Origin: an uncultured Holophagae bacterium
Lineage (GTDB): Bacteria > Acidobacteriota > Thermoanaerobaculia > Thermoanaerobaculales > Sulfomarinibacteraceae
DNA length: 64,000 bases
Assembly: GCA_963844865.1 (NCBI GenBank)
Contig: CAWJPY010000001.1
Location: forward strand, 81,415-145,414
Direction: 5' to 3'
The notes under the pieces are model-generated. The model did no database searches. It saw only the letters and a list, made by a program, of their open reading frames with translations, and had not been told where the DNA came from. Both the position numbers and the translations under genes were made by a program. This document shows, in pieces, positions 2,039 to 34,955 of this stretch (its first letter is position 1; the number at the start of each line of letters is the position of its first letter).

Positions 2039-2246
2039 CCTCGCCAGGGCGTAGCTCTCAGCCGCCTCTCGCGGTTTGGAGCGGCCCGGCTTGCCAAGGC
2101 GAAGTCGCGGTGGGCGGGCGCAGACGAAGCCTGGTGGAGGCGGTGGGAATCGACCACGCCGAAGACAGCGGCTGCGGCTGTGGCCGAGGGGGTCCGCAGG
2201 AGGGGGTCGGACGGCCTACAGCCGCCCGCTGGTCTCGGCGGGGCGC
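2039..2246 (-). repeat. copy A of a ~210-240-nt repeat element containing a second copy of the ssrA T-arm/acceptor/CCA end (2132-2153)
   Basis: 22/22 nt identity between 2132-2153 and 2347-2368 (27/29 with a 2-nt gap). The flanks share ordered blocks with 22379-22614: GCGCCCCGCC, CCAGCGGG, GGCCGTCC, GACCCCCTCGGCCAC, CCGCTG, CGTGGTCGA, CCACCAGGCTTCGT, AAGCCGGG, CGGCTGAGA, CTACGCCCTGGC. Confidence 0.6.
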
Positions 2247-2306
2247 CGCGGCGGGAGGGGGATGGGGGGCCGCGAGCCACCCACAGTGAGATTCCCACCG
2301 TAACCG

Positions 2307-2338
2307 AAGACGAAAGAAGCCGCCCGTCTGGCGGCTTC
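2307..2338 (-). terminator. rho-independent terminator of ssrA
   Basis: On the minus strand, 9 nt after the CCA end: GAAGCCGCC-agacg-GGCGGCTTC followed by TTTCGTCTT. Confidence 0.55.
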
Positions 2339-2346
2339 GACGTCTT

Positions 2347-2696
2347 TGGTGGAGGCGGTGGGAATCGAACCCACGTCCGAGGAACTCCGGCCGGCGGTGT
2401 CTCCGTGTGCAGCCCACCGGGTGTATCTCGTCCCCCGGCCAGTCGGTGGGCACCCATGCCGGGGGACCAGCCCCTGAGTTCTCGACTACCGGGTCAGGGC
2501 TCCCCGGTGGTCCAGCCCGTCAAACGGCGCCGAGCCCTGGCCGACAGGCGGAGCCGTCGGGTCGGCGCGGCTGCTTACGCAGCCAGTGCGTAGTCGTTGT
2601 TGGCAGTTGTGTTTGCCCCACCCGTTTTACGAGCGGATGGACCTCGACACGCTGCCGACAGCCGGACATGTTCCCCGTCGAGCCCAGTACGCCCCC
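2347..2696 (-). ncRNA. ssrA: tmRNA (transfer-messenger RNA)
   Basis: On the minus strand: 5' GGGGGCGUACUGGGCUCGACGGGG acceptor/D-like start. The internal tag ORF GCC AAC AAC GAC TAC GCA CTG GCT GCG TAA encodes ANNDYALAA (2575-2604). The 3' end is CGTGGGTTCGATTCCCACCGCCTCCACCA (T-arm, acceptor, encoded CCA). Confidence 0.92.
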
Positions 2697-2928
2697 AGGT
2701 TCGACAGCACCGCGCATTCTAGCATCTCGGACGCCCCAAAGCGCTCCGAGACGCCGGTGCGCTGACGTACATTTCAACATCCGGAGGGCCGCAGACGTTC
2801 CCGATGATGCCAGCAGGAACAGTGATCCGGGACAGCGGCAGCGGCAGCGACCGGCGGCAGTCAGCAGCGTCAGCGATCATCGATCAGCAGCCGCGATCGC
2901 CGCGGCCGGAGCGGCTGTGCGCCGACCG

Positions 2929-3315
2929 TCACTGCGTGGGGTGAAGGAGGCGCCACGTCATTGCCCGAACCTGATCAAACCGGGCGAGCACGCTGCCAGC
3001 CGCCGCCGGATCGACTGCTCCTGTCGCAGCCAGGAGGCGCAGGTGGCTGTCGACCTCCTTGGCCGACGCGTACGCGATTCTCCAGAAGTGCTGGCGATCG
3101 CGACCGGAGCGACCGTGGCCTTCAGCCAAATTGGCTGCCACCGAGCTCGCCGAGCGGATCACCTGGTCGGTGATGGACTTCAGCGGAGCCGGCAGCCGCA
3201 TCACGAGCCTGATGGCGGTGCCCGCTGCGTCGAGGGCCTTGCAGTGGGCGATCAGGCCGGGGTTGGCGGGGGCGTCGAGCATGTTCACCTCCGGGTCGTT
3301 CATGCTCTCGCGCAA
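2929..3315 (-). CDS. four-helix-bundle protein (23S rRNA intervening-sequence protein family)
   Basis: Motifs typical of this family: SITDQVIRSASSVAANLAEGHGR...F..IA.GSA.E. The start is uncertain (Met at 3315, 3303 or 3282). Confidence 0.75.
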   Translation of the reverse strand: MRESMNDPEVNMLDAPANPGLIAHCKALDAAGTAIRLVMRLPAPLKSITDQVIRSASSVAANLAEGHGRSGRDRQHFWRIAYASAKEVDSHLRLLAATGAVDPAAAGSVLARFDQVRAMTWRLLHPTQ

Positions 3316-3733
3316 CAGGCCGGTGGGCAGCCCACCTCAAGGGTGCGAAGCATCGCTGCGAAGCGTGCGGAGCACCGGTCCACCGGACCGGGTCCCCTTG
3401 ACGTGGGCTGGCCACCGCCTACATTCCCGACCGAACGACCCGGAGGTGAACATGCCGCAGCGCGCTGGCCGCTGGCCGCTGTGCGCTGCCCGCGGTCGCT
3501 GCCGCTGACCGCTGCCGCTGCCGCCGCTGGCCTCACCTACGACCTCGCGCCCTGGAAGCACCAGAGAGGGTGCCAGGCAACGTCAAAGCCGCAACGGAAC
3601 ACTCGGTCTCTTCATCTCCAACGGTGCCTGGCACCCACTCTCGCCTGCCCATCGCCGCTCATGCAGCACTTGACTGAGAACCCTGCGGGTGCCATATTGA
3701 CCTCGTCCCACGCTGCAATTGAAGGGAATTTCC

Positions 3734-5367: not shown

Positions 5368-5805
5368 ATGCTCGCAGCATGCTTCAGCGATCTCGTCTAT
5401 CACGTGGTGGTGGTGACCTCCGAGCGCCGCCCCCTCCTCGTTCCCCCGCTTTCGAACGACCTGACCCGTCTCGTCTCGAGCATCCTGCGGGACCACGGCG
5501 GCGAGCTCATCGAGGCCGCGGCGCTGCCCGACCACCTCCACCTGCTGCTCCGCCTCGGCACCGAGCACTCCCTGGCGGCCGCCGTGGCGCTGGTCAAGAC
5601 CGCCTCGGCGGCCCGCCTGCGGCGGGCTGTGAACGGCGAGGGGTTCGCGTGGCAGCCCGGGTTCGCCGCCTTCACGGTGGGCGCCGGGGAGCTCGTCGGC
5701 GCCATCCACGGCCTGCGGGGACAGGACCGTCGCCACCGCAACCACACCCTGACCCACGAGCTGCTCGGGCTGGTCCAGCACCACCGCGTCAGGGCGCCGG
5801 GGTGA
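5368..5805 (+). CDS. IS200/IS605-type (Y1 HUH, RAYT-like) transposase-like protein, probably inactive
   Basis: YHVVVVTSERRPLL and the HUH motif HLHLLL are present. The only Tyr in the 145-aa product is at residue 11, so no C-terminal catalytic Tyr is visible. No terminal inverted repeats or a tnpB partner were seen. Confidence 0.6.
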   Translation: MLAACFSDLVYHVVVVTSERRPLLVPPLSNDLTRLVSSILRDHGGELIEAAALPDHLHLLLRLGTEHSLAAAVALVKTASAARLRRAVNGEGFAWQPGFAAFTVGAGELVGAIHGLRGQDRRHRNHTLTHELLGLVQHHRVRAPG

Positions 5806-11548: not shown

Positions 11549-13651
11549 ATGACGCCGTACGAGTTGATCTGGTTGGTTCCCCTGTTCCCCCTCGCGGGTG
11601 CGGCCTTCAACGGCTTCGTCTCCAACCGCCGAGGCTACTCCAAGACGACCGCTCACACCGTGGCCCTCCTCGGCTCGGGCCTGGCCTGGCTGTGGGGGTG
11701 GGCGGCGGTGATCTGGTGGGCCGTCGCCGAAGACCACGCCCGACCCTACGTGGTCCACCTCTTCGACTGGATCCTGGGCGGCTCGGTGCCCATCGCGGAC
11801 GGTTCCCTGGCGCCGATCCACATCGCCGCCTCCTTCCAGCTGGACCCGCTGTCGGCGGTGATGGTGGCGTTCGTGACCTTCGTGGGCTTCCTGATCCACC
11901 TCTACTCCGTGGGCTACATGCACTCGGAGTCGGACCGTGCCTACGCCCGGTACTTCGCCTACCTGAACCTGTTCATGTTCGCCATGCTGACCCTGGTGCT
12001 GGGCTCCAACCTGCCGGTCCTGTTCGTGGGCTGGGAGGGCGTGGGGCTGTGCTCGTACCTCCTCATCGGCTTCTACTTCGATAAGGAGTGGTGCGCGTCG
12101 GCCGGCAAGAAGGCGTTCATCGTCAACCGTATTGGTGACTTCGGCTTCCTGCTCGCGATCTTCGCGTGCTTTGCCACCTTCGGATCCACCGAGTTTCAGG
12201 CCATGTTCCCGGCCGCGGCGGCCCACCCCGAGCAGTACATGGGGGCGGCCACGGTGATCGCCCTGCTGCTCTTCGTGGGAGCGGTGGGCAAGTCGGCCCA
12301 GATCCCGCTGTACGTGTGGCTGCCGGACGCCATGGCCGGTCCGACCCCGGTGTCGGCCCTCATCCACGCCGCGACCATGGTCACGGCGGGGGTGTACATG
12401 GTGGCGCGGTGCAACGTGTTCTTCCGGCTCAGCCCCACGGCCATGCTGGTGGTGGCGCTCGTGGGCGGGGTGACGGCGGTGTTCGCGGCGACCATCGGTC
12501 TGGTGCAGAACGACATCAAGAAGGTGCTGGCCTACTCCACGGTGTCCCAGCTCGGGTACATGTTCCTGGGGGCGGGGGTGGGGGCCTTCGTGGCGGCCAT
12601 CTTCCACGTGGTGACCCACGCCTTCTTCAAGGCCTGCCTGTTCCTCGGCTCGGGGTCGGTGATCCACGCCTGCGGGGGCGAGCAGGACATGCGCAAGATG
12701 GGCGGGCTGAAGAAGGTGATGCCCACCACCTACTGGACGTTCCTGATGGCGACCATCGCCATCGCCGGCATCTTCCCGTTCGCGGGCTTCTTCTCCAAGG
12801 ACAAGATCCTGGCCGCCACCTTCGCCGCGGCCTACGGCGACCTCAACGGCTTCGGGACGGTGATCTCGGTGCTGTGGGTGCTGGGCCTGGGGGGCGCGTT
12901 CCTCACCGCCTTCTACATGTTCCGGCTGGTGTACATGACCTTCCACGGGGAGTTCCGGGGCTCAGACGAAGCGAAGCACCACCTGCACGAGTCGCCGTGG
13001 ACCATGACGCTGCCCCTGATCGTGCTCGGGAGCCTGTCGGTCGTCGGCGGCTTCATGGGCTTCCCCGGCGAGCTGGCGCAGCACGCCGAGCTGAACGGCA
13101 TCGAGCGCTTCCTGGAGCCCATCCTGCTGCCCATCCACCACGGGGCGGAGGCCGCGGAGCACGCCGTGCACCACGTGCCCCTGTCCCTGGAGCTGGGGCT
13201 GATCGCCCTCTCCCTGGTGGTCGCCGGCTCCGGGATCTGGGTGGCGGCGCGCTTCTACCACGGCGTCCACCCCTTCGAGCGGGCGCGCCGTCTCGCCGAC
13301 CGCTTCCCCTTCGCCTACCGGCTGCTCCTCAACAAGTACTGGGTGGACGAGCTGTATGAAGCGACGGTGGTGGCGGGCTCGGTCAAGCTGGCGGACCTCC
13401 TGTGGGAGGCCGATGCGCGGGTGGTGGACGGCGCGGTCAACGGCACCCGCCACGTGACGGTGGGATCGAGCTTTCTCTCCGGCATCTTCGACCTCAGGGT
13501 GGTGGACGGTCTGGTCAACCTCGTGGCGAGGATCTACGACGTGGCCAGCCACCGCTTCCGCCGCCTGCAGATGGGCTTCACCCAGGGCTACGCCATGGTG
13601 ATGGTCTTCGGAGCGGCCGTCCTGCTGGTCGCGTTCCTGATCACGTACTAG
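11549..13651 (+). CDS. nuoL: NADH-quinone oxidoreductase subunit L
   Basis: 700-aa antiporter-like subunit (WEGVGLCSYLLIGF, GKSAQIPLYVWLPDAMAGPTPVSALIHAATMV) with a long C-terminal lateral-helix region. Confidence 0.93.
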   Translation: MTPYELIWLVPLFPLAGAAFNGFVSNRRGYSKTTAHTVALLGSGLAWLWGWAAVIWWAVAEDHARPYVVHLFDWILGGSVPIADGSLAPIHIAASFQLDPLSAVMVAFVTFVGFLIHLYSVGYMHSESDRAYARYFAYLNLFMFAMLTLVLGSNLPVLFVGWEGVGLCSYLLIGFYFDKEWCASAGKKAFIVNRIGDFGFLLAIFACFATFGSTEFQAMFPAAAAHPEQYMGAATVIALLLFVGAVGKSAQIPLYVWLPDAMAGPTPVSALIHAATMVTAGVYMVARCNVFFRLSPTAMLVVALVGGVTAVFAATIGLVQNDIKKVLAYSTVSQLGYMFLGAGVGAFVAAIFHVVTHAFFKACLFLGSGSVIHACGGEQDMRKMGGLKKVMPTTYWTFLMATIAIAGIFPFAGFFSKDKILAATFAAAYGDLNGFGTVISVLWVLGLGGAFLTAFYMFRLVYMTFHGEFRGSDEAKHHLHESPWTMTLPLIVLGSLSVVGGFMGFPGELAQHAELNGIERFLEPILLPIHHGAEAAEHAVHHVPLSLELGLIALSLVVAGSGIWVAARFYHGVHPFERARRLADRFPFAYRLLLNKYWVDELYEATVVAGSVKLADLLWEADARVVDGAVNGTRHVTVGSSFLSGIFDLRVVDGLVNLVARIYDVASHRFRRLQMGFTQGYAMVMVFGAAVLLVAFLITY

Positions 13652-22229: not shown

Positions 22230-22302
22230 GGGCCGTTAGCTCAGCTGGTAGAGCATCGGACTTTTAATCCGGTGGTCCCGGGTTCGAGTCCCGGACGGCC
22301 CA
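22230..22302 (+). tRNA. tRNA-Lys: tRNA-Lys (anticodon UUU)
   Basis: The cloverleaf was folded by hand: GGGCCGT/ACGGCCC acceptor, GCTC/GAGC D-stem, TCGGA-CTTTTAA-TCCGG anticodon arm, CCGGG-TTCGAGT-CCCGG T-arm, discriminator A. CCA is not encoded (CTC follows). Confidence 0.93.
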
Positions 22303-22378
22303 CTCACCCTGGAAGCACCTCTCACCGGAACGGCCTCGATATCGTTCGCGCCGTCCGCCCCGCACCCAACCTCACGGC

Positions 22379-22614
22379 GCGCCCCGCCCCGGCCAGCGGG
22401 TGGCCGTATGGCCGTCCCTCCCCCTCTCCGCCAGGCCTGCGACCCCCTCGGCCACGGCCACACACCGCTGCCCGAGCCGTGGTCGAGTCCCGGACGGCCC
22501 ACCAGGCTTCGTTCTCAGCCGTAGGATGAGAACGAAGCCTGCCACGGCGTAGCCGCAGGCGAAGCCGGGTCGCCCCGGGTCTCGAGACTCGGCTGAGAAC
22601 TACGCCCTGGCAGG
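22379..22614 (+). repeat. copy B of the repeat element, containing a second copy of the tRNA-Lys T-arm/acceptor end plus CCA (22483-22505)
   Basis: TCGAGTCCCGGACGGCCCAC at 22483-22502 is identical to tRNA positions 22284-22303 (24/26 when extended 5'). The flanks are homologous to 2039-2246 on the minus strand. The downstream part folds into a 12-bp hairpin (22505-22539) and a 16-bp long-range stem (22536-22551 with 22600-22615). Confidence 0.6.
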
Positions 22615-22789
22615 CGTTACGACGCGGGCGCTGATCACACCTGGAGACGCAACTCACAGCCTTATTTGTGAAACATCGTCTCATGATTTACGAGTGCTCC
22701 ACCACGGCGGGAAACGGCTATGATGGTGAGCGGACCAAGCATCGCGCGCAGTGGAGAGAGGCTGATCTTCCCGAGCCCGAGGGGGGCAC

Positions 22790-23788
22790 ATGGCGACACG
22801 CATGCCGAGCTCGACAGGGGTCGATCAACGTGAGCGGCCCGGCGAGCTCTGCGACACCTGCACGCTGTTTCCCGACTGCGCCCGTCGCCGCCAGCAGCAG
22901 ACTCCGGTACTCGAATGTGAGCTCTACCAGGAGGGCGACTGGAGTGTCGACCTGGTGGCGGCGCTGGTCGACCGCAACGCCGGGCAGCGGGGCGGGCTGA
23001 TCTCGACCCTGGAGGGCATCCAGGCCAAGTACGGCTACCTGCCCGAGGGTGCGCTGCGGGTGGTCGCGGAGCGCACCGGCCGGTCCCTGGTCGACATCTA
23101 CGGCGTGGCGACCTTCTACCGCGCCTTCAGCCTCGAGCCCCGCGGCAAGCACCTGTGCTCGGTCTGCGTCGGCACGGCGTGTCACGTCCGCGGCGCCCCG
23201 CTCGTCCATGACGAGTTCGAGCGCCAGCTCGAGGTGGAGGCCGGTCACACCACCTCAGACGGCGAGTTCACGCTCGAGACCGTCAACTGCCTGGGCGCCT
23301 GCGCCCTCGGGCCGATGGTGGTGATGGACGGGCACTACTTCTCGAACGTCGATCGGCGAAAGGTCGCAGATGTGATCTCGAAGACCCGGGTCGGCCTCGA
23401 CTTCGTGACGCCCGCCGGCGACGCCCGCGTATTTCCGGTGGAGGTCTACTGCGCCCGCTGCAATCACAGCCTGATGGACCCCGACCACCCCATCGAGGGC
23501 CAGCCGTCGGTGCGGGTCACCATCTCGTTCGGCCGCCGCCACGGTTGGCTGCGGCTCTCCTCCCTGTACGGCAGCTACACCATCGAGTCGGAGCACGACA
23601 TCCCGCCGGACACGGTGGCCAACTTCTTCTGTCCCCACTGCCACGGGGAGCTCGCCGGGGCCACCGACTGCCCGATGTGCGGGGCGCCCATGGTGCCGCT
23701 GATCGTGCGCGGCGGCGGCATGGTCCAGATCTGCTCGCGGCGCGGCTGCCACAGCCACATGCTCGACCTCAACGGCGTCAACCTGTGA
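22790..23788 (+). CDS. NuoE/HoxE/HydC-like [2Fe-2S] subunit with extra Cys-rich N- and C-terminal regions
   Basis: The central region LISTLEGIQAKYGYLP...VATFYRAF...HLCSVCVGTACHVRGA...VNCLGACALGP is the thioredoxin-like 2Fe-2S fold of NuoE. The C-terminal ~125 aa carry CxxC x3 plus CxxxxCH. The start is uncertain (a GTG near 22947 would give a canonical-length N-terminus). Confidence 0.8.
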   Translation: MATRMPSSTGVDQRERPGELCDTCTLFPDCARRRQQQTPVLECELYQEGDWSVDLVAALVDRNAGQRGGLISTLEGIQAKYGYLPEGALRVVAERTGRSLVDIYGVATFYRAFSLEPRGKHLCSVCVGTACHVRGAPLVHDEFERQLEVEAGHTTSDGEFTLETVNCLGACALGPMVVMDGHYFSNVDRRKVADVISKTRVGLDFVTPAGDARVFPVEVYCARCNHSLMDPDHPIEGQPSVRVTISFGRRHGWLRLSSLYGSYTIESEHDIPPDTVANFFCPHCHGELAGATDCPMCGAPMVPLIVRGGGMVQICSRRGCHSHMLDLNGVNL

Positions 23789-23804
23789 CGGTGACGGAGG
23801 CCTG

Positions 23805-26800
23805 ATGGAGAAGCTGCAGTCCATCGAGGAGTTCCACGGCCTCGGCGAGCGCCTGCGCGTCGACAGCCGGGCTGCTGTGGGGCCCACCATCGTCATTCCA
23901 GCCGGAACCTGCGGCCAGGCGAGCGGAGCCAACGACCTGATCCGGGTCACCAAACGGACGCTGCTCGAACGCGGCCTGGGGGATCGGGTGGCGCTCCGGA
24001 TCACCGGCTGCCACGGCTACTGCCAGGCGGAGCCGTCGGTGCTCGTGGAGCCGCACCGGACCTTCTACCCGAAGGTCGACATCGACGGCATGGTGCGCAT
24101 CGTCGAGGCGACGGCGGCAGGTGGGATCGTGGAGGACCTGCTGTTCTCAGACCCCGCGACCGGCCGCCGCATCGAGCGCCAGGACGACGTCCCGTTCTTC
24201 GTCCGTCAGCAGCGGCTGCTGCTGCGTCGCAACGAGGCGGTGGACCCGATCAGGATCTTCAACGCCATCGAGCGCGGCGGCTACGCGGCGTTCGTCGGCC
24301 TGCTGGAGTCCGGCCGCGCCGAGGATGTCCTCGACGCCCTGCGCCGATCCGGCCTGCGGGGCCGCGGCGGCGCCGGGTTCCCGACCTGGCGCAAGTGGCA
24401 GATGCTCGCCGAACGCCCCTCGGACCGCGGCAAGTTCCTGGTGTGCAACGCCGACGAGGGCGACCCCGGCGCCTACATGGACCGCAGCCTGCTCGAGGGC
24501 AACCCCCACTCGATCCTCGAGGGCATGCTGATCGGGGCCTTCACCACCGGCGCCACCGAGGGCGTGATCTACGTGCGCGCCGAGTACCCCCTCGCCATCA
24601 AACACCTGACCATCGCGCTCCGCCAGGCCCGCGAGCTGGGCCTGCTCGGCGACGACATCCTCGGCGCTGGCTTCGCTTTCGAGGTGGCGCTGGTGCGCGG
24701 CGCCGGCGCCTTCGTGTGCGGCGAGGAGACGGCGCTGATCGCGTCGATCGAGGGCCGCATGGGCGAGCCCCGACAGCGGCCGCCGTTCCCGGTCGAGCGC
24801 GGCATCGACGGCCGCCCGACGGTGATCAACAACGTCGAGACCTGGGCCAACATGCCGCTGATCGTCGGCGAGGGGGCGGAGGCGTACGCCGCCGCGAGCG
24901 GCGGCGCGGGAGGCGGTACCAAGATCTTCAGCCTGGTGGGAAAGGTCGCCAACACCGGTCTGGTGGAGGTGCCCATGGGCACCCCCATCGCCGACATCGT
25001 GTACGGGATCGGGGGCGGCTCGTCCTCGGGCAAGCGGATCAAGGCAGTGCAGACGGGAGGTCCTTCCGGCGGCTGCATCCCGGCCGCCCGCTTCGACCTG
25101 CCCATCGACTACGACAGCCTGGCGAGCGCCGGCTCGATCATGGGCTCCGGGGGCATGATCGTGATGGACGACGACACCTGCATGGTGGACGTCGCCAGGT
25201 ACTTCATGAGCTTCCTGCGCGAGGAGTCCTGCGGCAAGTGCTTCACCTGCCGCAAGGGCACCCAGCGCATGCAAGAGATCCTCTCCGACATCAGCGAGGG
25301 GCGGGGAACCCTTGCGCAGATCGACCTGCTCGAGGAGCTGGCGCAGGTGGTCCGCGACACCTCCATGTGCGGCCTCGGCCAGTCCGCGGCCAACCCGGTG
25401 CTGACCACCCTGCGCAGCTTCCACGACGAGTACCGCCGCCACGTTGTGGACCGCCGCTGCGACGCCTTCGTGTGCACCGAGCTGGTCGGAGCGCCCTGCC
25501 AGGCGGCGTGCCCGGTCGGCACCGAGGCGTGGCGCTACGTGGCGCACATCGCGCGCGGCGAGGTGGAGGAGGCCTACCGGGTGATCCGCGAGGCCAACCC
25601 CTTCCCGTCGGTGTGCGCGCGCGCCTGCGACCACCCGTGCGAGGAGCGCTGCCGGGCCGGCACCAGCGGCGGCGACGCGGTGGCCATCCGCGCCCTGAAG
25701 CGCTTCGTCACCGACCGCGTCGAGCCCTCCGCCTACCGTCCGGCGCGGCGTCCCTGGGCGGACGGCTCACCGCCGCGCATCGCGGTGATCGGCGCCGGGC
25801 CGGCGGGGCTCACGGCGGCCCACATGCTGTCCCTCGCCGGTGGTCGCGTCACCGTCTTCGAGGCGGACACCGAACCGGGCGGCATGCTCTATTGCGCCAT
25901 CCCTTCCTACCGGCTGCCCCGCGAGGTGGTCGAGCGCGAGATCGAGGCGCTGCTCGACGACACCGTCGAGGTCCGCTGCGGCGTCGCGCTGGGCCGCGAC
26001 GTCACCATCGACGGCCTCCTTGCAGACGGCTACGACGCGGTGCTCCTGGCCATGGGCGCCCACAAGAGCCGCGCGCTCGACCTCGACGGCGAGGACGCCC
26101 GGGGCGTCTTCCCCGCCATCGAGTTCCTGAAGGCGTTCAACCTCCGTGGGGAGCAGCTCGCCCGGGGACGGGTGGTGGTGGTCGGGGGCGGCAACTCGGC
26201 CATCGACGCCGCGCGGACGGCGATCCGCCAGCGCGACGTGGAAAGCGTCACCATCCTCTACCGTCGCACCCGCGCCGAGATGCCGGCCTTCGCCGAGGAG
26301 ATCGACGCCGCGCTCGAGGAGGGGATCGTCCTCGAGACGCTGGCGGCGCCGGCGGGCATCGACACCACCGACGGAGCACTGTCGCGCCTGGAGTGCCTCC
26401 GCAACACCCTCGGCGACGCCGACGCGAGCGGCCGCCGGCGCCCGGTACCGGTCCCCGGCAGCGAGTTCTCACTCGACCTCGACACCCTGATCGTCGCCAT
26501 CAGCGAGGACTCGGGCGTCGATGCCGTCACCCCGGCGCGCGGTGGAGGCATCGAGATCACCGCCCGCAACACCGTCAAGGTCGACCCCGAGACGCTGCAG
26601 ACCAGCCGGGAGGGGGTGTTCGCCGCCGGCGACGTGGTCAGCGGGCCCAACACCATCGTGGACGCCGTGGCGGCCGGCAAACGGGCGGCGGCGATGATCG
26701 AGCGCTTCCTCCTCGGGCGCCCGCTCCAGATACCGGCCACGGGTTCGGTCCCGACCGTCTACGTGGAACCTCCGGCGGCGGGCGACGCCACCGCCCCCGA

Positions 26801-26975
26801 GACGGACCGGGTCGAGACCCCCCGCGCGTCGGTGGCCTGGCGGCGGCGCAACTTCGCCGAGGTGGAGGTGACCTTGTCGCCGGAGGAAGCGCGGCGCGAG
26901 GCCGGCCGCTGCCTCCGCTGCGATCTCGAGTTCACGAAACCGGCGGAGCACGCGCTGGCGAAGGTGGGAGGGTAG
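23805..26975 (+). CDS. NuoF/HydB-like FMN/NADH subunit fused to a GltD-like FAD/NAD(P)H oxidoreductase
   Basis: The N-terminal 2Fe-2S-like domain is followed by GLRGRGGAGFPT, CGEETALIASIEG and ESCGKCFTCRKG..MCGLG (NuoF core). Then come the GltD-type FeS region (CQAACPV..., CARACDHPCEERC), VIGAGPAGLTAA and VVGGGNSAIDAA dinucleotide folds, and the C-terminal CLRCD. Confidence 0.88.
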   Translation: MEKLQSIEEFHGLGERLRVDSRAAVGPTIVIPAGTCGQASGANDLIRVTKRTLLERGLGDRVALRITGCHGYCQAEPSVLVEPHRTFYPKVDIDGMVRIVEATAAGGIVEDLLFSDPATGRRIERQDDVPFFVRQQRLLLRRNEAVDPIRIFNAIERGGYAAFVGLLESGRAEDVLDALRRSGLRGRGGAGFPTWRKWQMLAERPSDRGKFLVCNADEGDPGAYMDRSLLEGNPHSILEGMLIGAFTTGATEGVIYVRAEYPLAIKHLTIALRQARELGLLGDDILGAGFAFEVALVRGAGAFVCGEETALIASIEGRMGEPRQRPPFPVERGIDGRPTVINNVETWANMPLIVGEGAEAYAAASGGAGGGTKIFSLVGKVANTGLVEVPMGTPIADIVYGIGGGSSSGKRIKAVQTGGPSGGCIPAARFDLPIDYDSLASAGSIMGSGGMIVMDDDTCMVDVARYFMSFLREESCGKCFTCRKGTQRMQEILSDISEGRGTLAQIDLLEELAQVVRDTSMCGLGQSAANPVLTTLRSFHDEYRRHVVDRRCDAFVCTELVGAPCQAACPVGTEAWRYVAHIARGEVEEAYRVIREANPFPSVCARACDHPCEERCRAGTSGGDAVAIRALKRFVTDRVEPSAYRPARRPWADGSPPRIAVIGAGPAGLTAAHMLSLAGGRVTVFEADTEPGGMLYCAIPSYRLPREVVEREIEALLDDTVEVRCGVALGRDVTIDGLLADGYDAVLLAMGAHKSRALDLDGEDARGVFPAIEFLKAFNLRGEQLARGRVVVVGGGNSAIDAARTAIRQRDVESVTILYRRTRAEMPAFAEEIDAALEEGIVLETLAAPAGIDTTDGALSRLECLRNTLGDADASGRRRPVPVPGSEFSLDLDTLIVAISEDSGVDAVTPARGGGIEITARNTVKVDPETLQTSREGVFAAGDVVSGPNTIVDAVAAGKRAAAMIERFLLGRPLQIPATGSVPTVYVEPPAAGDATAPETDRVETPRASVAWRRRNFAEVEVTLSPEEARREAGRCLRCDLEFTKPAEHALAKVGG

Positions 26976-26978
26976 CCG

Positions 26979-27656
26979 ATGGTCACGCTCACCATCAACG
27001 GCCTCGAGGTGTCCGTCGAGCGGGGCTCGACGATCCTGGAGGCGGCGCAGTTCCTCGGCTTCCCGATCCCGACCCTGTGCCACATGGAGGGCCTGTCGCC
27101 CTACGGCGCCTGCCGCCTGTGCGTGGTCGAGGTCGGCAACGGCTCCCGTACCCAGCTCGTCACGTCCTGCACCCACCCGGTGGTCGAGGGCATCACGGTC
27201 CGCACCGCCTCGGAGCGCGTGGTGCGGGCGCGGCGGATGATCGTCGAGCTGCTGCTGGCGTCGTGCCCGCAGTCGAAGACGATCCAGGACCTGGCGTCGG
27301 CGCTCGACGTCCGCCAGCAGCGCTTCCGGCAGGAGCACGAGGACTGCATCCTGTGCGGCCGCTGCGTCCGCATGTGCGCCGAACAAATGGCCGGCTCGGC
27401 GATCGGCTTCCGCGGCCGCGGACCGACCCGCAGCATCGGCACACCGTTCGACGCCGCCTCCGAGAAGTGCCGGCTCTGCGGCGGCTGCATGTACGTCTGT
27501 CCCGCGTGCGAGCTGCGCTGCACCTACACCGAGCCGGAGAAGGCCATCTGCGGCGGCTGCGCCAACCTGGCGCCGCCGTGCGTGGACAAGCCCCGGTTCG
27601 ACGACATGATGTGCTTCCTGGACCCGTGCGTGGCCTGCGAGATCAAACCCGACTGA
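26979..27656 (+). CDS. NuoG/HydA N-terminal-like [2Fe-2S]/[4Fe-4S] ferredoxin subunit (no catalytic domain)
   Basis: TINGLEVSVERGSTILEAA...PTLCH...GACRLCVVEV (plant-type 2Fe-2S as in NuoG), followed by CILCGRCVRMC and CRLCGGCMYVCP cluster motifs. Confidence 0.82.
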   Translation: MVTLTINGLEVSVERGSTILEAAQFLGFPIPTLCHMEGLSPYGACRLCVVEVGNGSRTQLVTSCTHPVVEGITVRTASERVVRARRMIVELLLASCPQSKTIQDLASALDVRQQRFRQEHEDCILCGRCVRMCAEQMAGSAIGFRGRGPTRSIGTPFDAASEKCRLCGGCMYVCPACELRCTYTEPEKAICGGCANLAPPCVDKPRFDDMMCFLDPCVACEIKPD

Positions 27657-27676
27657 GTGCGGGGGGAGGAGAGAAG

Positions 27677-29266
27677 ATGTCTCTGTCGAGAATCAACGCG
27701 ACGGCGGCGACGCTGACCAAGAATCGGACCGAGGGCTCGGTGGTCCCCACCTCCGGGATGTGCGTCACCTGCGTCGACGGCTGCATCGGCATGTGCGAGA
27801 TCGGCAAGTCCGCCTACCGCGGCCACGAGGTGATCTACCCGCAGCCGTTCGGCGTCATCACCACCGCCGGCGAGAAGCTCTACCCCGTGGACTACTCGCA
27901 CTTCAACATCATGGGCACGGCGGTCGGCGCCCACGGCATCGAGGCCGACAGCGACCGGGCGGTGTTCCCGGCGGTGGACCTGGAGGTGCGCTTCGGCCAC
28001 GACGACGGTCTCAAGTTCCGGCGGCCGTGGATCATCCCCGGCATCGGCTCCACCGACGTGGCGCGCAACAACTGGGAGGGCATCGCCATCGGCTCGGCGC
28101 TCGCCGGGACCGGGCTGACCATCGGCGAGAACGTGGTCGGCATGGACATGGAGGCGGTCATCAAGGACGGTCGCGTCACCGACACCTCAGACCTCAAGCG
28201 CCGCGTCAAGCTCTACAAGGACCACCAGATCGACGGCTACGGCGCGATCATCGTCCAGGCCAACGTGGAGGACACGCGGCTGGGCACGCAGGAGTACGCG
28301 ATCCAGGAGCTCGGTGTGGAGTGCGTCGAGCTCAAGTGGGGTCAGGGCGCCAAGAACATCGGCGGCGAGGTCAAGATCAAGGACCTCGCCAAGGCCCAGG
28401 AGCTGTACCGCCGCGGGTACATCGTGCTGCCGGACCCGACCGACGAGCGCGTCGTCCAGGCCTTCCACCGCGGGACGTTCCGCGAGTTCGAGCGCCACTC
28501 ACGGGTCGGCATGGTCGAGGAGGAGGCGTTCGCCCAGAGGGTCGAGGAGCTGCGCTCAGCCGGCGCCCGCTACGTCTTCCTGAAGACCGGGGCCTACCGT
28601 CCGGCGGACCTGGCGCGGGCGGTGGCCTGGTCGTCGAAGTACGGGATCGACCTGCTGACCGTGGACGGAGCGGGAGGTGGAACGGGCATGAGCCCGTGGC
28701 ACATGATGAACGAGTGGGGGGTCCCGCCGGTGGAGCTCCACTCCCTGCTCTACCAGTACGCCGACCGGCTCTTCAGCGAGGGCCGCCCGCTGCCCGCGAT
28801 CGCGCTGGCCGGCGGCTTCGTCTTCGAGGACCAGATCTTCAAGGGGCTCGCCCTCGGTGCGCCGTACGTCAAGCTCGTGGGCATGGCGCGGGCGCCCATC
28901 GCGGCCGCCATGGTCGGCAAGACCATCGGCCGCACCATCGACGAGGGCCAGATCCCGGTCTACGTGGAGCGCTTCGGCCGCAGCCGCGACGAGATCTTCG
29001 TCACCGCCGCCGAGCTCCGCGTCCTGGTCGGCGACGAGGCGTTCGAGAAGCTCCCGACCGGCGCCATCGGGCTCTACACCTACTTCGAGCGGCTCGCCCA
29101 GGGGCTGCGGCAGCTCATGTGCGGGGCACGCAAGTTCACGCTCGAGCACATGTCGCGGGACGATCTCGCGTGCCTGACCCGCGAGGCCGCCGACATCAGC
29201 GGCATCCGCTACCTGCTGGACGTGGACCGCGAGGAGGTGGACACGATTCTCGACGGCCGCCACTGA
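27677..29266 (+). CDS. glutamate-synthase-related FMN-binding (GltS FMN domain) protein with an N-terminal Cys cluster
   Basis: LKWGQGAKNIGGEVK, TVDGAGGGTGMSP and LAGGFVFEDQIFKGLALGAPYVKLVGMAR match the GltB FMN/TIM-barrel domain. The N-terminus has CVTCVDGCIGMC. No amidotransferase or GXGXG domains are present. ATG 27677 follows GGAGGAGAG. Confidence 0.82.
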   Translation: MSLSRINATAATLTKNRTEGSVVPTSGMCVTCVDGCIGMCEIGKSAYRGHEVIYPQPFGVITTAGEKLYPVDYSHFNIMGTAVGAHGIEADSDRAVFPAVDLEVRFGHDDGLKFRRPWIIPGIGSTDVARNNWEGIAIGSALAGTGLTIGENVVGMDMEAVIKDGRVTDTSDLKRRVKLYKDHQIDGYGAIIVQANVEDTRLGTQEYAIQELGVECVELKWGQGAKNIGGEVKIKDLAKAQELYRRGYIVLPDPTDERVVQAFHRGTFREFERHSRVGMVEEEAFAQRVEELRSAGARYVFLKTGAYRPADLARAVAWSSKYGIDLLTVDGAGGGTGMSPWHMMNEWGVPPVELHSLLYQYADRLFSEGRPLPAIALAGGFVFEDQIFKGLALGAPYVKLVGMARAPIAAAMVGKTIGRTIDEGQIPVYVERFGRSRDEIFVTAAELRVLVGDEAFEKLPTGAIGLYTYFERLAQGLRQLMCGARKFTLEHMSRDDLACLTREAADISGIRYLLDVDREEVDTILDGRH

Positions 29267-29283
29267 GCGGCGGAGGAGGCACC

Positions 29284-29616
29284 ATGAAGCTCGCGATGCC
29301 GGTTGCCAAGGGTCGCCTGGCGTCGTCCCTCGAGGTCGCCGAGTCCTTCGACATCGTCGAGGTGGACCTCGTGGCGCGAAGCGCGTCGAACGCCTGGCGC
29401 TCGGACCCGGCGCACCGCAGCGGCGCGGAGCTCGCCGAGTGGCTCCTCGGCGAGGGCGTCGACCTCGTGATCGCCGGGAACATCGGGTCGTGGGAGCGCG
29501 GCTGGCTCGAGGGACGCGGGCTGCGAGTCCTCGCCGGGGTGCCCCGGGAAGCGCCTCGCGAGCTCGTCAGGGCGTACCTCGAGGACGAGCTCGAGCAGGC
29601 GACGACCACAGCCTAG
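29284..29616 (+). CDS. NifX/NifB-C-terminal/NafY-like (dinitrogenase FeMo-cofactor-binding fold) small protein
   Basis: MKLAMPVAKGRLAS...FDIVEV...LVIAGNIGSWERGWLEGRGLRVL matches the pattern of this family. GGAGGAGG RBS is present. It is the last gene of the operon. Confidence 0.6.
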   Translation: MKLAMPVAKGRLASSLEVAESFDIVEVDLVARSASNAWRSDPAHRSGAELAEWLLGEGVDLVIAGNIGSWERGWLEGRGLRVLAGVPREAPRELVRAYLEDELEQATTTA

Positions 29617-34556: not shown

Positions 34557-34955
34557 ATGGCACAGGACAGAAGCAGTGCCCAGAGCACGGGAATCAGGGG
34601 CCGCACCCCCGGCGGGCGTGGCAGTGGGGGCGGACGAGGCATGGGAGGAGGTGGACGAGGCATGGGAGGAGGTGGACGAGGCATGGGAGGAGGTGGGGGA
34701 AGAGGAGCCGGCGGAGGCGGAGGAATGGGTGGTGGCGGCGGCAGGGGAATGGGCCCGGGCGGGGGCGGCATGGGCGGGGGCGGCTTCTGCGTCTGCGCCA
34801 AGTGCGGCCAGCGATTCCCTCATCGCCCAGGTGTGCCGTGTCTGGAGGAGCGCTGCCCCGATTGCGGCGTCGCACTGGTGCGGGAGGGCTCGGCACATCA
34901 CCGCGAGATCGAGGCGCGCCGGAGCCGCAGAGGTGGTGACAACGACGCGGGCTGA
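34557..34955 (+). CDS. Gly/Arg-rich low-complexity protein with a C-terminal zinc-ribbon-like Cys motif
   Basis: About 70 aa of GGRGMGGG-type repeats, then FCVCAKCGQRFPHRPGVPCLEERCPDCG. GGAGGA lies before ATG 34557. Confidence 0.6.
   Translation: MAQDRSSAQSTGIRGRTPGGRGSGGGRGMGGGGRGMGGGGRGMGGGGGRGAGGGGGMGGGGGRGMGPGGGGMGGGGFCVCAKCGQRFPHRPGVPCLEERCPDCGVALVREGSAHHREIEARRSRRGGDNDAG
34632..34694 (+). repeat. perfect in-frame 21-bp tandem repeat x3
   Basis: GGACGAGGCATGGGAGGAGGT occurs three times, encoding GRGMGGG x3. Confidence 0.9.

What the first reader, a model, noticed from the sequence alone, without database searches (positions are those of the whole stretch)
22284..22614. The tRNA-Lys 3' half is duplicated 200 nt downstream, with an encoded CCA that the gene itself lacks, followed by nested hairpins
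Seen directly:
- TCGAGTCCCGGACGGCCCAC (tRNA positions 22284-22303) recurs at 22483-22502.
- The copy continues ...CCA-GG, whereas the tRNA gene is followed by CTC.
- Just 5' of the copy, the T-stem half reads CGTGG-TCGA, which is identical to the ssrA-side copy rather than to the tRNA-Lys gene (CCGGGTTCGA).

Inference:
- That pattern suggests a recombination crossover inside the T-loop. Left of it would be element-derived (shared between loci), right of it locus-specific.
- In that reading the original tRNA-Lys 3' end encoded CCA and was displaced.

Also seen: immediately after the copy come a perfect 12-bp hairpin (GGCTTCGTTCTC...GAGAACGAAGCC, 22505-22539) and a 16-bp long-range stem (GCCTGCCACGGCGTAG with CTACGCCCTGGCAGGC). 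These enclose a GTCTCGAGAC palindrome. Parts of this downstream arm are again conserved at the ssrA locus.
Basis: seen in the sequence. Interest (0 to 1): 0.65.

Follow-up and report, generated by a model that had tools for sequence, protein, structure and literature searches.

The report
Stacked selfish inserts behind tRNA-Lys
The repeated tRNA-Lys end is the gene's displaced original tail, pushed 200 bases downstream by a tiny gene-less insert that also sits behind the tmRNA gene, and the hairpins after it are the leftover leader of a small nuclease gene cassette that in many bacteria sits right after the CCA end of tmRNA and tRNA genes.

Summary
The last 20 nt of tRNA-Lys (22284-22303) recur at 22483-22502 and continue as CCA.

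Two separate non-coding modules are stacked here.

1. X (22304-22482, 179 nt, no ORF) lies between the regenerated gene end and the displaced original end.
- Homologous X inserts, each flanked by 20-22 nt repeats of their own target, sit behind the tmRNA gene in this window and behind tRNA-Ala and tRNA-Lys in related Thermoanaerobaculia-like contigs.
- Other contigs show the unoccupied state, with the gene's CCA followed directly by Y.
- This is the signature of T-loop site-specific integration, but X carries no integrase. The enzyme is inferred.

2. Y (22505-22615, the "nested hairpins") is built from a REP-like unit with a conserved GUA/GAA internal loop and a covarying inner stem.
- In 8 of 8 sampled relatives from at least four phyla, Y is the leader of an 82-aa GIY-YIG nuclease gene.
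- That gene starts right after the CCA of a tmRNA or tRNA gene, or after a displaced 3' fragment of one.
- The window copies have lost the ORF.

I found no link to the nearby IS200-like gene. Y matches no Rfam family, and no paper found describes the Y-nuclease arrangement.

The parts
22230..22303 (+). tRNA-Lys(UUU) gene. It is intact, and its 3' end is followed by TC rather than by an encoded CCA.
   Evidence: ARAGORN; Rfam tRNA, 75 bits.
22284..22303 (+). Left copy of the repeat (O-left): T-loop position 55 through the first C after the discriminator. This is the regenerated end of the gene.
   Evidence: Exact 20-mer repeat; layout.
22304..22482 (+). X: a 179-nt ORF-less insert. Its right ~150 nt (the C module, 22337-22484) are homologous to the inserts at ssrA, tRNA-Ala and tRNA-Lys in other contigs. 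It ends in CCGTGG.
   Evidence: nhmmer, E = 1e-19; alignments; no unusual RNA fold, z = -0.63.
22483..22504 (+). Right copy of the repeat with CCA (O-right): the displaced original tRNA-Lys 3' end. Similarity to strain variant L002 stops exactly after it.
22505..22615 (+). Y: nested hairpin module with no ORF. The outer inverted REP-like unit reads GGCTTCG-TTCTCAGCC...GGCTGAGAA-CTACGCCCTGGCA, and the gene-side CCA can pair with its TGG. It encloses the 12-bp hairpin 22505-22539 and a forward unit.
   Evidence: homologous to the leaders of GIY-YIG genes.
22539..22572 (+). Forward REP-like unit M: outer stem, 3x3 internal loop GUA/GAA, variable inner stem-loop.
   Evidence: Covariance model R1, 46.3 bits, E = 2.8e-10; folds; pair counts.
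2347..2696 (-). tmRNA gene (tag ANNDYALAA). Its last 22 nt (2347-2368) form the left repeat at this locus.
2154..2346 (-). X at the ssrA locus (193 nt). It starts with a terminator-like hairpin (2316-2338) directly after the tmRNA CCA, and its C module spans 2152-2299.
2132..2153 (-). Displaced copy of the tmRNA 3' end (TCGATTCCCACCGCCTCCACCA), preceded by GGCGTGG.
2042..2131 (-). Y at the ssrA locus. It has no ORF and includes an inverted M unit abutting CCA.
   Evidence: R1 hit at 2091-2137, 22.7 bits, E = 8e-4.

Best explanation
Two unrelated, non-coding selfish modules are stacked at the 3' end of tRNA-Lys, and the same pair is stacked at ssrA 20 kb away.

(1) X is a miniature insert with no genes.
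- It entered the gene in the T-loop-to-CCA segment. It brought a replacement 3' end that lacks CCA at this locus, and pushed the original 3' end (with CCA) 201 nt downstream.
- This is the regenerated-target-plus-displaced-fragment geometry of site-specific integration at the T-loop sublocation of tRNA and tmRNA genes.
- Because X has no recombinase, I infer that an integrase encoded elsewhere moved it, or moved a longer ancestor. The attP core would have to match each target.
- What is shown: X is an insertion, its repeats are target-specific, and it occurs at three kinds of target.
- What is inferred: the enzyme, and how the core became retargeted.

(2) Y was already there as the flank after CCA.
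- It is a cluster of REP-like hairpin units. In other bacteria these form the structured leader of an 82-aa GIY-YIG nuclease gene that begins right after the CCA of tmRNA or tRNA genes.
- In the window the ORF has been lost and only the hairpins remain.
- In the ssrA and tRNA-Ala versions X starts with a terminator-like hairpin. This would cut Y off from read-through transcription from the upstream gene and may explain the decay of the cassette. That step is inferred.
For: X is an insertion:
- Exact repeat of the gene's 3' end.
- Occupied versus unoccupied sites are tabulated. tRNA-Ala|X|O|Y (L129, L134, L135) compares with tRNA-Ala|Y (L142), and L134 and L142 share the same tRNA-SeC neighbour. 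tmRNA|X|O|Y (window, L130) compares with tmRNA|Y (L152, L153 and L162; L165).
- The repeats equal the adjacent gene in every case.
- X+O is 201-215 nt at all three kinds of target, and 347 nt where the C module is doubled.
- X copies resemble each other by genome or sample rather than by target. Window-Lys versus window-ssrA is 67% identical, against 53% for window-Lys versus L124-Lys.

The breakpoint after the copy:
- Strain variant L002 is 99.6% identical to the window up to the CCA of the copy. It then diverges and rejoins at 29287.

Parallels with true islands:
- Islands with displaced fragments that start in the T-loop sit at the same genes elsewhere (L154-L156).
- The regenerated-target-plus-displaced-fragment principle, and the frequency of T-stem attP sites, are described in PMC4383910.
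- For phage Ms6, changing the attP core switches integration between tRNA-Ala T-loops (PMC1762012).

Y:
- All 8 sampled GIY-YIG family members lie right after a tmRNA gene, a tRNA-Ala gene or a displaced 3' fragment, separated only by Y.
- The M unit forms a standard pair in 96.6% of cells, with changes on both sides at 3 pairs. 0 of 500 shuffles reach its covariation score.
- The covariance model finds M only at the two tRNA-like loci in the 64-kb window at significant scores.
- The window has no GIY-YIG coding remnant.
Against: - There is no integrase in X, next to it, or among the window ORFs I scanned. No full-length X relative with an integrase was found.
- A single integrase family using three different cores (Lys, Ala, tmRNA) needs a retargeting step that I cannot explain. 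A plain T-loop crossover from an ssrA-type element would produce a hybrid, non-functional tRNA.
- In L124 the insert joins the T-loop of a displaced tRNA-Lys fragment directly, with no left repeat.
- C modules also occur away from tRNA genes and in tandem.
- No unoccupied tRNA-Lys|Y site with an intact gene was recovered.
- The sample of X copies is small (7 loci) and was partly selected by my own search pattern.
- The contexts of Y come from one protein family picked through a single contig.
Confidence: 0.6

Rival explanations
1. X was copied between loci by replication or repair template switching, with no dedicated recombinase. A nascent strand would leave the recipient gene after CCACCA, copy X from another locus, and return at the T-loop TCGA. 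This duplicates the recipient's own 22 nt. CCACCA, TCGA and Y are the only sequences the loci share, so the junctions would recur.
For: - All targets end in CCACCA and share TCGA in the T-loop.
- Both repeats are always locus-specific. This model explains that without any retargeting.
- L145 shows a bare tandem duplication of the tRNA-Ala 3' 25 nt at the same place, without X.
- X copies group by genome or sample.
- X carries no recombinase.
Against: - It would need several independent rare events with the same outcome.
- At the window tRNA-Lys locus the left junction is CCCAC|TC, not CCACCA, and the terminator hairpin is missing.
- It does not explain the conserved internal motifs of X.
- L145 is a single metagenome contig and could be an assembly artefact.
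Confidence: 0.15
2. The whole region, X and Y together, is REP/REPIN or IS200/IS605-type single-strand DNA. A Y1 (HUH) transposase such as the IS200-like gene at 5368-5805 would move it, inserting next to a short target such as CCACCA or GGTT.
For: - M has a GTAG next to a hairpin, occurs in both orientations, is nested at 22505-22615, and occurs in tandem arrays in L129 and L165.
- GTAG-tagged REPs and RAYTs are described in PMC3733652.
- A Y1_Tnp gene lies 3 kb from ssrA.
- The L124 insert looks like a plain insertion after GGGTT with no duplication.
- One M unit lies away from any tRNA gene (L142 1259-1294).
Against: - No M or C unit flanks the Y1 gene.
- That gene scores 54.8 bits against the IS200 family's cut-off of 55, and well below the RAYT cut-off, 37 against 80 bits. 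Its Pfam match stops before the region that carries the catalytic tyrosine.
- M is not dispersed in the window: there are two loci in 64 kb, both at tRNA-like genes.
- IS200/IS605 insertion makes no 20-22-nt duplication.
- The gene that consistently accompanies Y is GIY-YIG, not Y1 (8 of 8 sampled).
Confidence: 0.12
3. X plus the copy is a functional transcript: an RNA with a tRNA-like 3' end, or a scaffold-plus-guide RNA like the guide RNAs (omega-RNAs) of TnpB nucleases encoded by IS200/IS605 transposons. The 20-22 nt matching the neighbouring gene would serve as a decoy or guide.
For: - A conserved ~150-nt module is followed directly by a target-matching 20-22-mer ending in CCA, at three targets.
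- The copy carries CCA where the gene lacks it.
Against: - X-O folds no better than shuffles, z = -0.63.
- No Rfam match.
- No promoter-like site was found.
- The copy is in the same sense as the gene, not complementary to it.
- No TnpB-like or IscB-like ORF was found among the window ORFs scanned.
- X sequence is poorly conserved, 47-72% between loci.
Confidence: 0.06

Closest known systems
Genomic islands and prophages integrated by tyrosine integrases into the T-loop-to-3'-end segment of tRNA and tmRNA genes, and their decayed remnants (Islander principle, PMC4383910; Ms6 attP core, PMC1762012)
   Same: - A regenerated gene plus a displaced 3' fragment in direct orientation.
- An identity block running from the T-loop to CCA.
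- tmRNA and tRNA genes as targets.
- In the ssrA and tRNA-Ala versions the insert supplies a new 3' end and a terminator-like hairpin.
   Different: - The bounded segment is only 179-193 nt and has no integrase or any other ORF.
- The same mini-insert family occurs at three different targets, each with matching repeats.
- No full-length parent was found.
Cis-mobilizable elements (CIMEs): att-flanked elements without recombination genes, moved by a related element's integrase. The term is listed in ICEberg 2.0 (PMC6323972). The mechanism is from my own knowledge of the Streptococcus thermophilus ICESt work.
   Same: Flanked by att-type repeats, lacks its own integrase, and sits in arrays with other elements at the same site.
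   Different: - CIMEs are kilobases long and derive from known ICEs.
- X is about 0.2 kb, roughly the size of a bare attP.
- No helper element has been identified.
REP/REPIN elements with a GTAG tag, mobilised by RAYTs (PMC3733652, PMC3116915)
   Same: The M units of Y are short hairpins containing GTAG. They occur singly, as inverted pairs and in arrays, and show compensatory stem changes.
   Different: - GTAG lies inside a conserved 3x3 internal loop (GUA/GAA) flanked by a conserved outer stem.
- Copy number in the window is two loci, both at tRNA-like genes.
- The associated gene is a GIY-YIG nuclease, not a RAYT.
Free-standing GIY-YIG homing endonuclease genes such as phage T4 segB in the tRNA gene region. 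PMC13096335 mentions SegB; the details are from my own knowledge.
   Same: A small GIY-YIG gene placed directly beside tRNA-type genes. Presence varies between strains.
   Different: - The 82-aa protein is a bare catalytic domain with no DNA-binding domain.
- It is chromosomal and found across several phyla.
- It has a conserved structured leader that starts exactly at CCA.
- Nuclease activity and homing are untested. The window has only the leader.
The E. coli tyrT locus, where a 178-bp unit that begins with the last ~19 nt of tRNA-Tyr is repeated about three times downstream of the gene (from memory, not checked here)
   Same: The 3' end of a tRNA, including CCA, is repeated a couple of hundred bases downstream of the gene.
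   Different: The tyrT repeats are a local tandem duplication at one locus. Here the spacer is a family shared between different genes and genomes.

Membership tests
tRNA/tmRNA-gene-integrating island (tyrosine integrase) or its remnant | Intact regenerated target gene plus a displaced 3' fragment of the same gene in direct orientation | tested here: met
   This holds for the tRNA-Lys and ssrA loci in the window and for tRNA-Ala in L129, L134 and L135.
tRNA/tmRNA-gene-integrating island (tyrosine integrase) or its remnant | Identity block at a recognised sublocation (T-loop or T-stem through the 3' end) | tested here: met
   The repeats start at TCGA of the T-loop and end at or in CCA. The same sublocation is used by a larger insert in L154-L156. 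PMC4383910 counts 1836 of 3919 islands with a T-stem-region attP site.
tRNA/tmRNA-gene-integrating island (tyrosine integrase) or its remnant | An integrase gene inside the bounded segment | tested here: not met
   The bounded segment is 179 nt (tRNA-Lys) or 193 nt (ssrA) with no gene. The flanking genes are purA, NuoE/F-like genes, a thiolase and ComM. No integrase was found among the other window ORFs scanned.
tRNA/tmRNA-gene-integrating island (tyrosine integrase) or its remnant | An unoccupied site in relatives | tested here: met
   Found for tRNA-Ala (L142) and for tmRNA (L152, L153 and L162; L165). Not found for an intact tRNA-Lys.
tRNA/tmRNA-gene-integrating island (tyrosine integrase) or its remnant | Excision to a circle carrying attP, dependent on an integrase | not testable with these tools
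   Needs PCR or read-level population data.
REP/REPIN mobilised by a RAYT | A short palindromic unit with a GTAG tag | tested here: met
   The M unit reads ..GGCGTAG-[hairpin]-CGAAGCC... 96.6% of cells are paired, with covariation. However, GTAG is internal to the unit rather than terminal.
REP/REPIN mobilised by a RAYT | High copy number, dispersed in intergenic regions | tested here: inconclusive
   Only two loci in the 64-kb window, both at tRNA-like genes. One stray unit lies at L142 1259-1294. The whole genome was not available.
REP/REPIN mobilised by a RAYT | A RAYT gene flanked by the repeats | tested here: not met
   The Y1 gene at 5368-5805 has no M or C unit nearby. It scores 37 bits against the RAYT model's cut-off of 80, and 54.8 against IS200's cut-off of 55.
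Free-standing GIY-YIG homing endonuclease cassette | A GIY-YIG ORF with conserved catalytic residues | tested here: not met
   The window has none (tblastn). Relatives do: PF01541 at E = 1e-10, with invariant Y6, Y8, Y20, G22, R30, H34, N35 and E66.
Free-standing GIY-YIG homing endonuclease cassette | A DNA-binding domain that confers site specificity | tested here: not met
   The proteins are 81-83 aa, the catalytic domain only. The nearest solved structures are UPF0213 proteins of unknown function.
Free-standing GIY-YIG homing endonuclease cassette | Cleavage of the cassette-free allele, and presence/absence polymorphism at a fixed site | tested here: inconclusive
   Y is present in the window and absent in L002, with the breakpoint exactly after CCA. 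But the difference is a 6.8-kb replacement, not a clean cassette indel. Cleavage cannot be tested here.
IS200/IS605 element with a TnpB guide RNA (omega-RNA) | A structured scaffold RNA followed by a guide taken from the flank, with a TnpB gene present | tested here: not met
   X-O fold z = -0.63. No Rfam hit. No TnpB-like ORF among the ORFs scanned; that scan was not exhaustive.

The most novel reading that the evidence does not exclude
The hairpin module Y, together with its 82-aa GIY-YIG gene, would be an undescribed mobile or homing cassette. It would occupy the position immediately after the CCA of tmRNA and tRNA genes across at least four phyla: Acidobacteriota, Desulfobacterota, Verrucomicrobiota and Lentisphaerota. 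The M hairpin (GUA/GAA loop) would be its recognition or processing element. X would be a second, miniature parasite, essentially a bare attachment site. It would hop between Y-bearing tRNA and tmRNA genes in one genome while always carrying a core that matches its target.
Probability: 0.3. Interest if true: 0.8.

Novelty: new variant of a known kind. Interest (0 to 1): 0.6.

Why it matters
tRNA and tmRNA gene ends are the main landing sites for genomic islands.

This window shows two layers of very small, gene-less DNA at such sites:
- a ~200-nt insert family that behaves like an integrating element but has no recombinase and fits three different targets;
- a conserved hairpin module that is fixed to the CCA end in many phyla and normally leads a tiny GIY-YIG nuclease gene.

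If the mini-insert moves as such, it gives a natural example of attachment-site retargeting. That is relevant to work on integrases for targeted genomic insertion (PMC12884075).

If the GIY-YIG cassette is a homing or site-guarding element, it is a new player at integration hot spots. It would also give a first functional lead for a widespread protein family of unknown function.

In practice, such relics explain assembly breaks (L001 has a gap of Ns at this spot) and spurious tRNA fragments next to tRNA genes.

Tried and rejected
Searches that found nothing useful:
- Viral contig scans with right-arm, C-module and Y motifs gave no true hits.
- The 15-mer GACCCCCTCGGCCAC gave only chance hits.
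- Plasmid searches with Y DNA and with the GIY-YIG protein found nothing.
- Rfam gave nothing for X or Y, at gathering thresholds or at E <= 10, in the window, L142 and L162.
- Four literature searches combining GIY-YIG with tmRNA, ssrA or tRNA found no description of this arrangement.

Ideas I dropped:
- Tandem accretion, with X-right + O + Y as an attP-like junction between two copies of one element. Dropped because Y follows uninterrupted genes without X in many genomes.
- The right end of X as a longer degenerate copy of the tmRNA 3' domain. The similarity beyond CGTGG is not significant, p = 0.02-0.97.
- The same Y-GIY cassette sitting behind two different tRNAs (L142 versus L149). Withdrawn because L149 shares its downstream genes with L142 and simply has an island inserted.
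- The 7.2-kb island of L124 as the full-length parent of X. By inspecting its ORF translations I saw no integrase, only DDE-transposase-like pieces, an HTH protein and a repeat protein. No domain search was run on them.

Look-ups that did not help:
- Exact-protein look-ups for ssrA-side neighbours returned only the window's own sequence or nothing.
Full report
**Observation**

- ARAGORN and Rfam place tRNA-Lys(UUU) at 22230-22303 (+) and a tmRNA gene at 2347-2696 (-). These are the only tRNA-like genes in the window.
- The last 20 nt of tRNA-Lys, TCGAGTCCCGGACGGCCCAC, recur exactly once, at 22483-22502. Shuffles give 0.03 matches on average.
- The gene copy is followed by TC. The downstream copy is followed by CA and then GGCTTCG, so only the copy carries an encoded CCA.
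- The hairpins are as described, except that the 16-bp stem has a central C.C mismatch. The region 22499-22618 folds with z = -4.57 against shuffles.
- The ssrA locus has the same layout on the minus strand. The last 22 nt of the tmRNA gene (2347-2368) recur at 2132-2153.

**The two loci are homologous on both sides of the copy**

Alignment and BLAST show similarity both to the left of the copy (about 22337-22482) and to its right (22505-22612). About 15 locus-specific nucleotides lie in between. A simple reading of island end, then core, then host flank does not explain the shared right side. I therefore looked for relatives.

**Strain variant**

- Contig L002 encodes the identical PurA protein. 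It matches the window at 99.6% up to 22504, the A of the copy's CCA.
- It then has 195 unrelated nt and rejoins the window at 29287 at 95% identity.
- So the copy with its CCA marks the end of the conserved tRNA-linked block. What follows it differs between strains.
- L001 (MAG GCA_964576825.1) has a gap of Ns at this spot.

**Relatives found with a pattern that leaves the core free**

I scanned with GTGGTC[G/R]A-NN-CC-N11-CCAGGCTTCG, which fixes the flanks but leaves the core free.
- The genome collection gave one true hit, L124, a Ca. Sulfomarinibacteraceae MAG (Acidobacteriota, Thermoanaerobaculia).
- The metagenome collection gave L129, L130, L134 and L135.
- L130 is the window's ssrA locus at 98% identity.
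- L129, L134 and L135 carry tRNA-Ala(GGC), followed by a homologous insert, then a copy of the tRNA-Ala 3' end (TCGATCCCGATCGGCTCCACCA), then GGCTTCG....

The general layout is gene-O | X | O-CCA | Y.
- O always equals the adjacent gene.
- X+O is 201-215 nt, or 347 nt where an internal module is doubled.
- In the ssrA and tRNA-Ala versions X begins with a terminator-like hairpin directly after the gene's CCA.
- X contains conserved motifs (CTCGCGGCC..GGCCGCGG and CCCGCC.AGA..AGCGGG.GGC) and ends in CTTCGGCGTGG.
- An HMM of this C module finds only the two loci in the window.

**What Y is**

- In L135, Y is followed by an 82-aa ORF that matches the GIY-YIG domain (PF01541, E = 1e-10).
- The family has 465 database hits at E below 1e-5. 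Most are 81-83 aa and most lie on short contigs.
- I looked up genomic contexts for seven further members, 61-80% identical to the first.
- With L135, every one of the eight lies directly downstream of a tmRNA gene, a tRNA-Ala gene, or a displaced 3' fragment of such a gene, separated only by Y:

| Upstream feature | Loci |
|---|---|
| tmRNA gene | L152; L153 (Desulfosarcina variabilis); L158 (Chthoniobacter flavus); L162; L165 (Lentisphaerae MAG) |
| tRNA-Ala(GGC) gene | L135; L142 |
| Displaced 3' fragment next to an island | L141 |

- The junction is CCACCA|G[G/T]CTTCG in all but Chthoniobacter.
- These loci have Y but no X. Y is therefore independent of X and was the pre-existing flank when X inserted. 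That explains why the sequence to the right of the copy is shared between the tRNA-Lys and ssrA loci.
- The window has no GIY-YIG coding remnant, so both of its Y copies have lost the ORF.
- The protein family keeps the catalytic-type residues Y6, Y8, Y20, G22, R30, H34, N35 and E66.
- It has no NCBIfam name. Its nearest solved structures are UPF0213 proteins of unknown function.

**Anatomy of Y**

- Y is built from a unit M, TGCCAnGGCGTAG-[variable hairpin]-CGAAGCC, which occurs in both orientations.
- The copy that abuts the gene is inverted. The plus strand there reads CCA|GGCTTCG-[hairpin]-CTACGCCCTGGCA, and the gene's CCA can pair with the TGG of the unit.
- Fourteen units all fold alike: an outer stem, a 3x3 internal loop GUA/GAA, and a variable inner stem-loop.
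- On 12 aligned forward units, 96.6% of cells form a standard pair and three pairs change on both sides. 0 of 500 shuffles reach the covariation score, and slid controls collapse to 20-39% paired.
- A covariance model of M finds 22539-22572 (46 bits) and the ssrA-side unit (22.7 bits). Its third-best hit is a partial match at 13574-13594 (20.7 bits, E = 0.003), which I take to be a chance match; every other hit has E of 0.14 or more.
- At the tRNA-Lys locus, an outer inverted unit with stem TTCTCAGCC/GGCTGAGAA encloses the 12-bp hairpin and a forward unit.
- M resembles GTAG-tagged REPs (PMC3733652). It differs in that GTAG is internal, and that the accompanying gene is GIY-YIG rather than a RAYT.
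- Y has no Rfam match.

**What X is**

The geometry is that of site-specific integration at the T-loop sublocation. There is an intact gene, an insert, and a displaced 3' fragment starting in the T-loop.
- The regenerated target and the displaced fragment mark the ends of an island, and T-stem-region attP sites are common (PMC4383910).
- Unoccupied counterparts exist for tRNA-Ala and tmRNA.
- The downstream copy keeps the ancestral CCA|Y junction, so it is the original end. The replacement end at the tRNA-Lys locus lacks CCA and the terminator hairpin.
- X copies group by genome or sample, not by target. Window-Lys versus window-ssrA is 67% identical. L129 (tRNA-Ala, from the same metagenome as L130 and L002) versus window-ssrA is 72%. 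Window-Lys versus L124-Lys is 53%. X has therefore moved between targets.
- X has no ORF. X-O does not fold better than shuffles, z = -0.63.
- No integrase is present near either locus or among the window ORFs I scanned.

My best reading is a miniature, attP-sized integrative element, or a recurrent minimal remnant, moved by an integrase encoded elsewhere. Ms6 shows that changing the attP core retargets integration between tRNA T-loops (PMC1762012). How natural X copies acquired cores matching three targets remains unexplained. Template switching at the shared CCACCA and TCGA microhomologies is a serious rival, because it yields locus-specific repeats without any retargeting.

**Things that do not fit neatly**

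- In L124 the insert joins the T-loop of a displaced tRNA-Lys fragment directly, with no left repeat. The intact tRNA-Lys lies 7.2 kb upstream, followed by a Y-like unit.
- A C-C tandem junction lies inside that 7.2-kb segment.
- L145 has a bare tandem duplication of the tRNA-Ala 3' end.
- One M unit lies away from any tRNA gene.

**The nearby 'RAYT-like' gene**

- The ORF at 5368-5805 matches Y1_Tnp (E = 3e-17).
- It scores 54.8 bits against NCBI's IS200 model, whose cut-off is 55, and far below the RAYT cut-off, 37 against 80 bits.
- No M or C unit flanks it.
- I found no link between this gene and the finding.

**Verdict**

The REP-like intuition for the hairpins is structurally right.
- The region is better described as two stacked relics: a gene-less mini-insert family at tRNA and tmRNA T-loops, and the ORF-less leader of a GIY-YIG cassette that sits right after CCA.
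- The first is a new variant of a known kind.
- The second appears undescribed in Rfam and in the papers I could search. It is the more interesting lead.

Noticed in passing
window 22505-29286: This whole 6.8-kb stretch holds Y plus an operon of NuoE-like, NuoF/GltD-like and ferredoxin-like genes and one further ORF. In strain variant L002 it is replaced by 195 unrelated nt. Identity is 99.6% to its left and 95% to its right. The right breakpoint lies at the start codon region of a Nitro_FeMo-Co-like gene (29285).
   Followed up: partly
window 5368-5805 (+): IS200-like Y1 transposase ORF (PF01797). The HUH motif is present (HLH). The Pfam match ends before the region that normally carries the catalytic tyrosine, where the sequence reads AIHGL. 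It may be inactive or divergent. No hairpin repeats of the M or C type lie around it.
   Followed up: partly
L124 1-7480 (CAWCLO010000006.1): An intact tRNA-Lys with CCA is followed by a Y-like unit. Then come 7.2 kb of lower-GC DNA with DDE-transposase-like pieces, an HTH protein and a repeat protein, and no integrase that I could see in the ORF translations. Then comes a tRNA-Lys fragment running from the anticodon loop to the T-loop, interrupted by X. This looks like an anticodon-loop island stacked on an older T-loop insert.
   Followed up: partly
L141 2640-2860 and L149 1-200: An island with an AEP-TOTE primase-helicase and HTH_17 genes ends with the same degenerate tRNA-like 3' end (GGTTCGAATTCTTCGCGTTCGCGTCCACCA) directly before Y, in two different contigs. 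Some islands therefore seem to integrate right at the CCA|Y junction.
   Followed up: no
L145 625-690: The last 25 nt of tRNA-Ala are duplicated in direct tandem (..CCACCA-GG-GGTTCGATCCCGTTCGGCTCCACCA|Y) with no insert between them. This could be a footprint, a slippage product or an assembly artefact.
   Followed up: no
L129 420-700; L165 790-1120; L152 1240-1480: Y units occur as tandem arrays, with a period of about 110-120 nt, between the tRNA or tmRNA gene and the GIY-YIG start or the next gene.
   Followed up: no
L142 1200-1390: An M unit sits in the centre of a palindrome made of GGAATTC repeats, in an intergenic region far from any tRNA gene.
   Followed up: no
window 34626-34775: Imperfect 21-nt tandem repeats (GGAGGTGGACGAGGCATGGGA).
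   Followed up: no
window 2835-2892 and 3467-3524: 58-nt inverted repeats, 72% complementary and rich in GCGGCAGC, flank the unassigned ORF 3059-3508 just upstream of the tmRNA promoter side.
   Followed up: no
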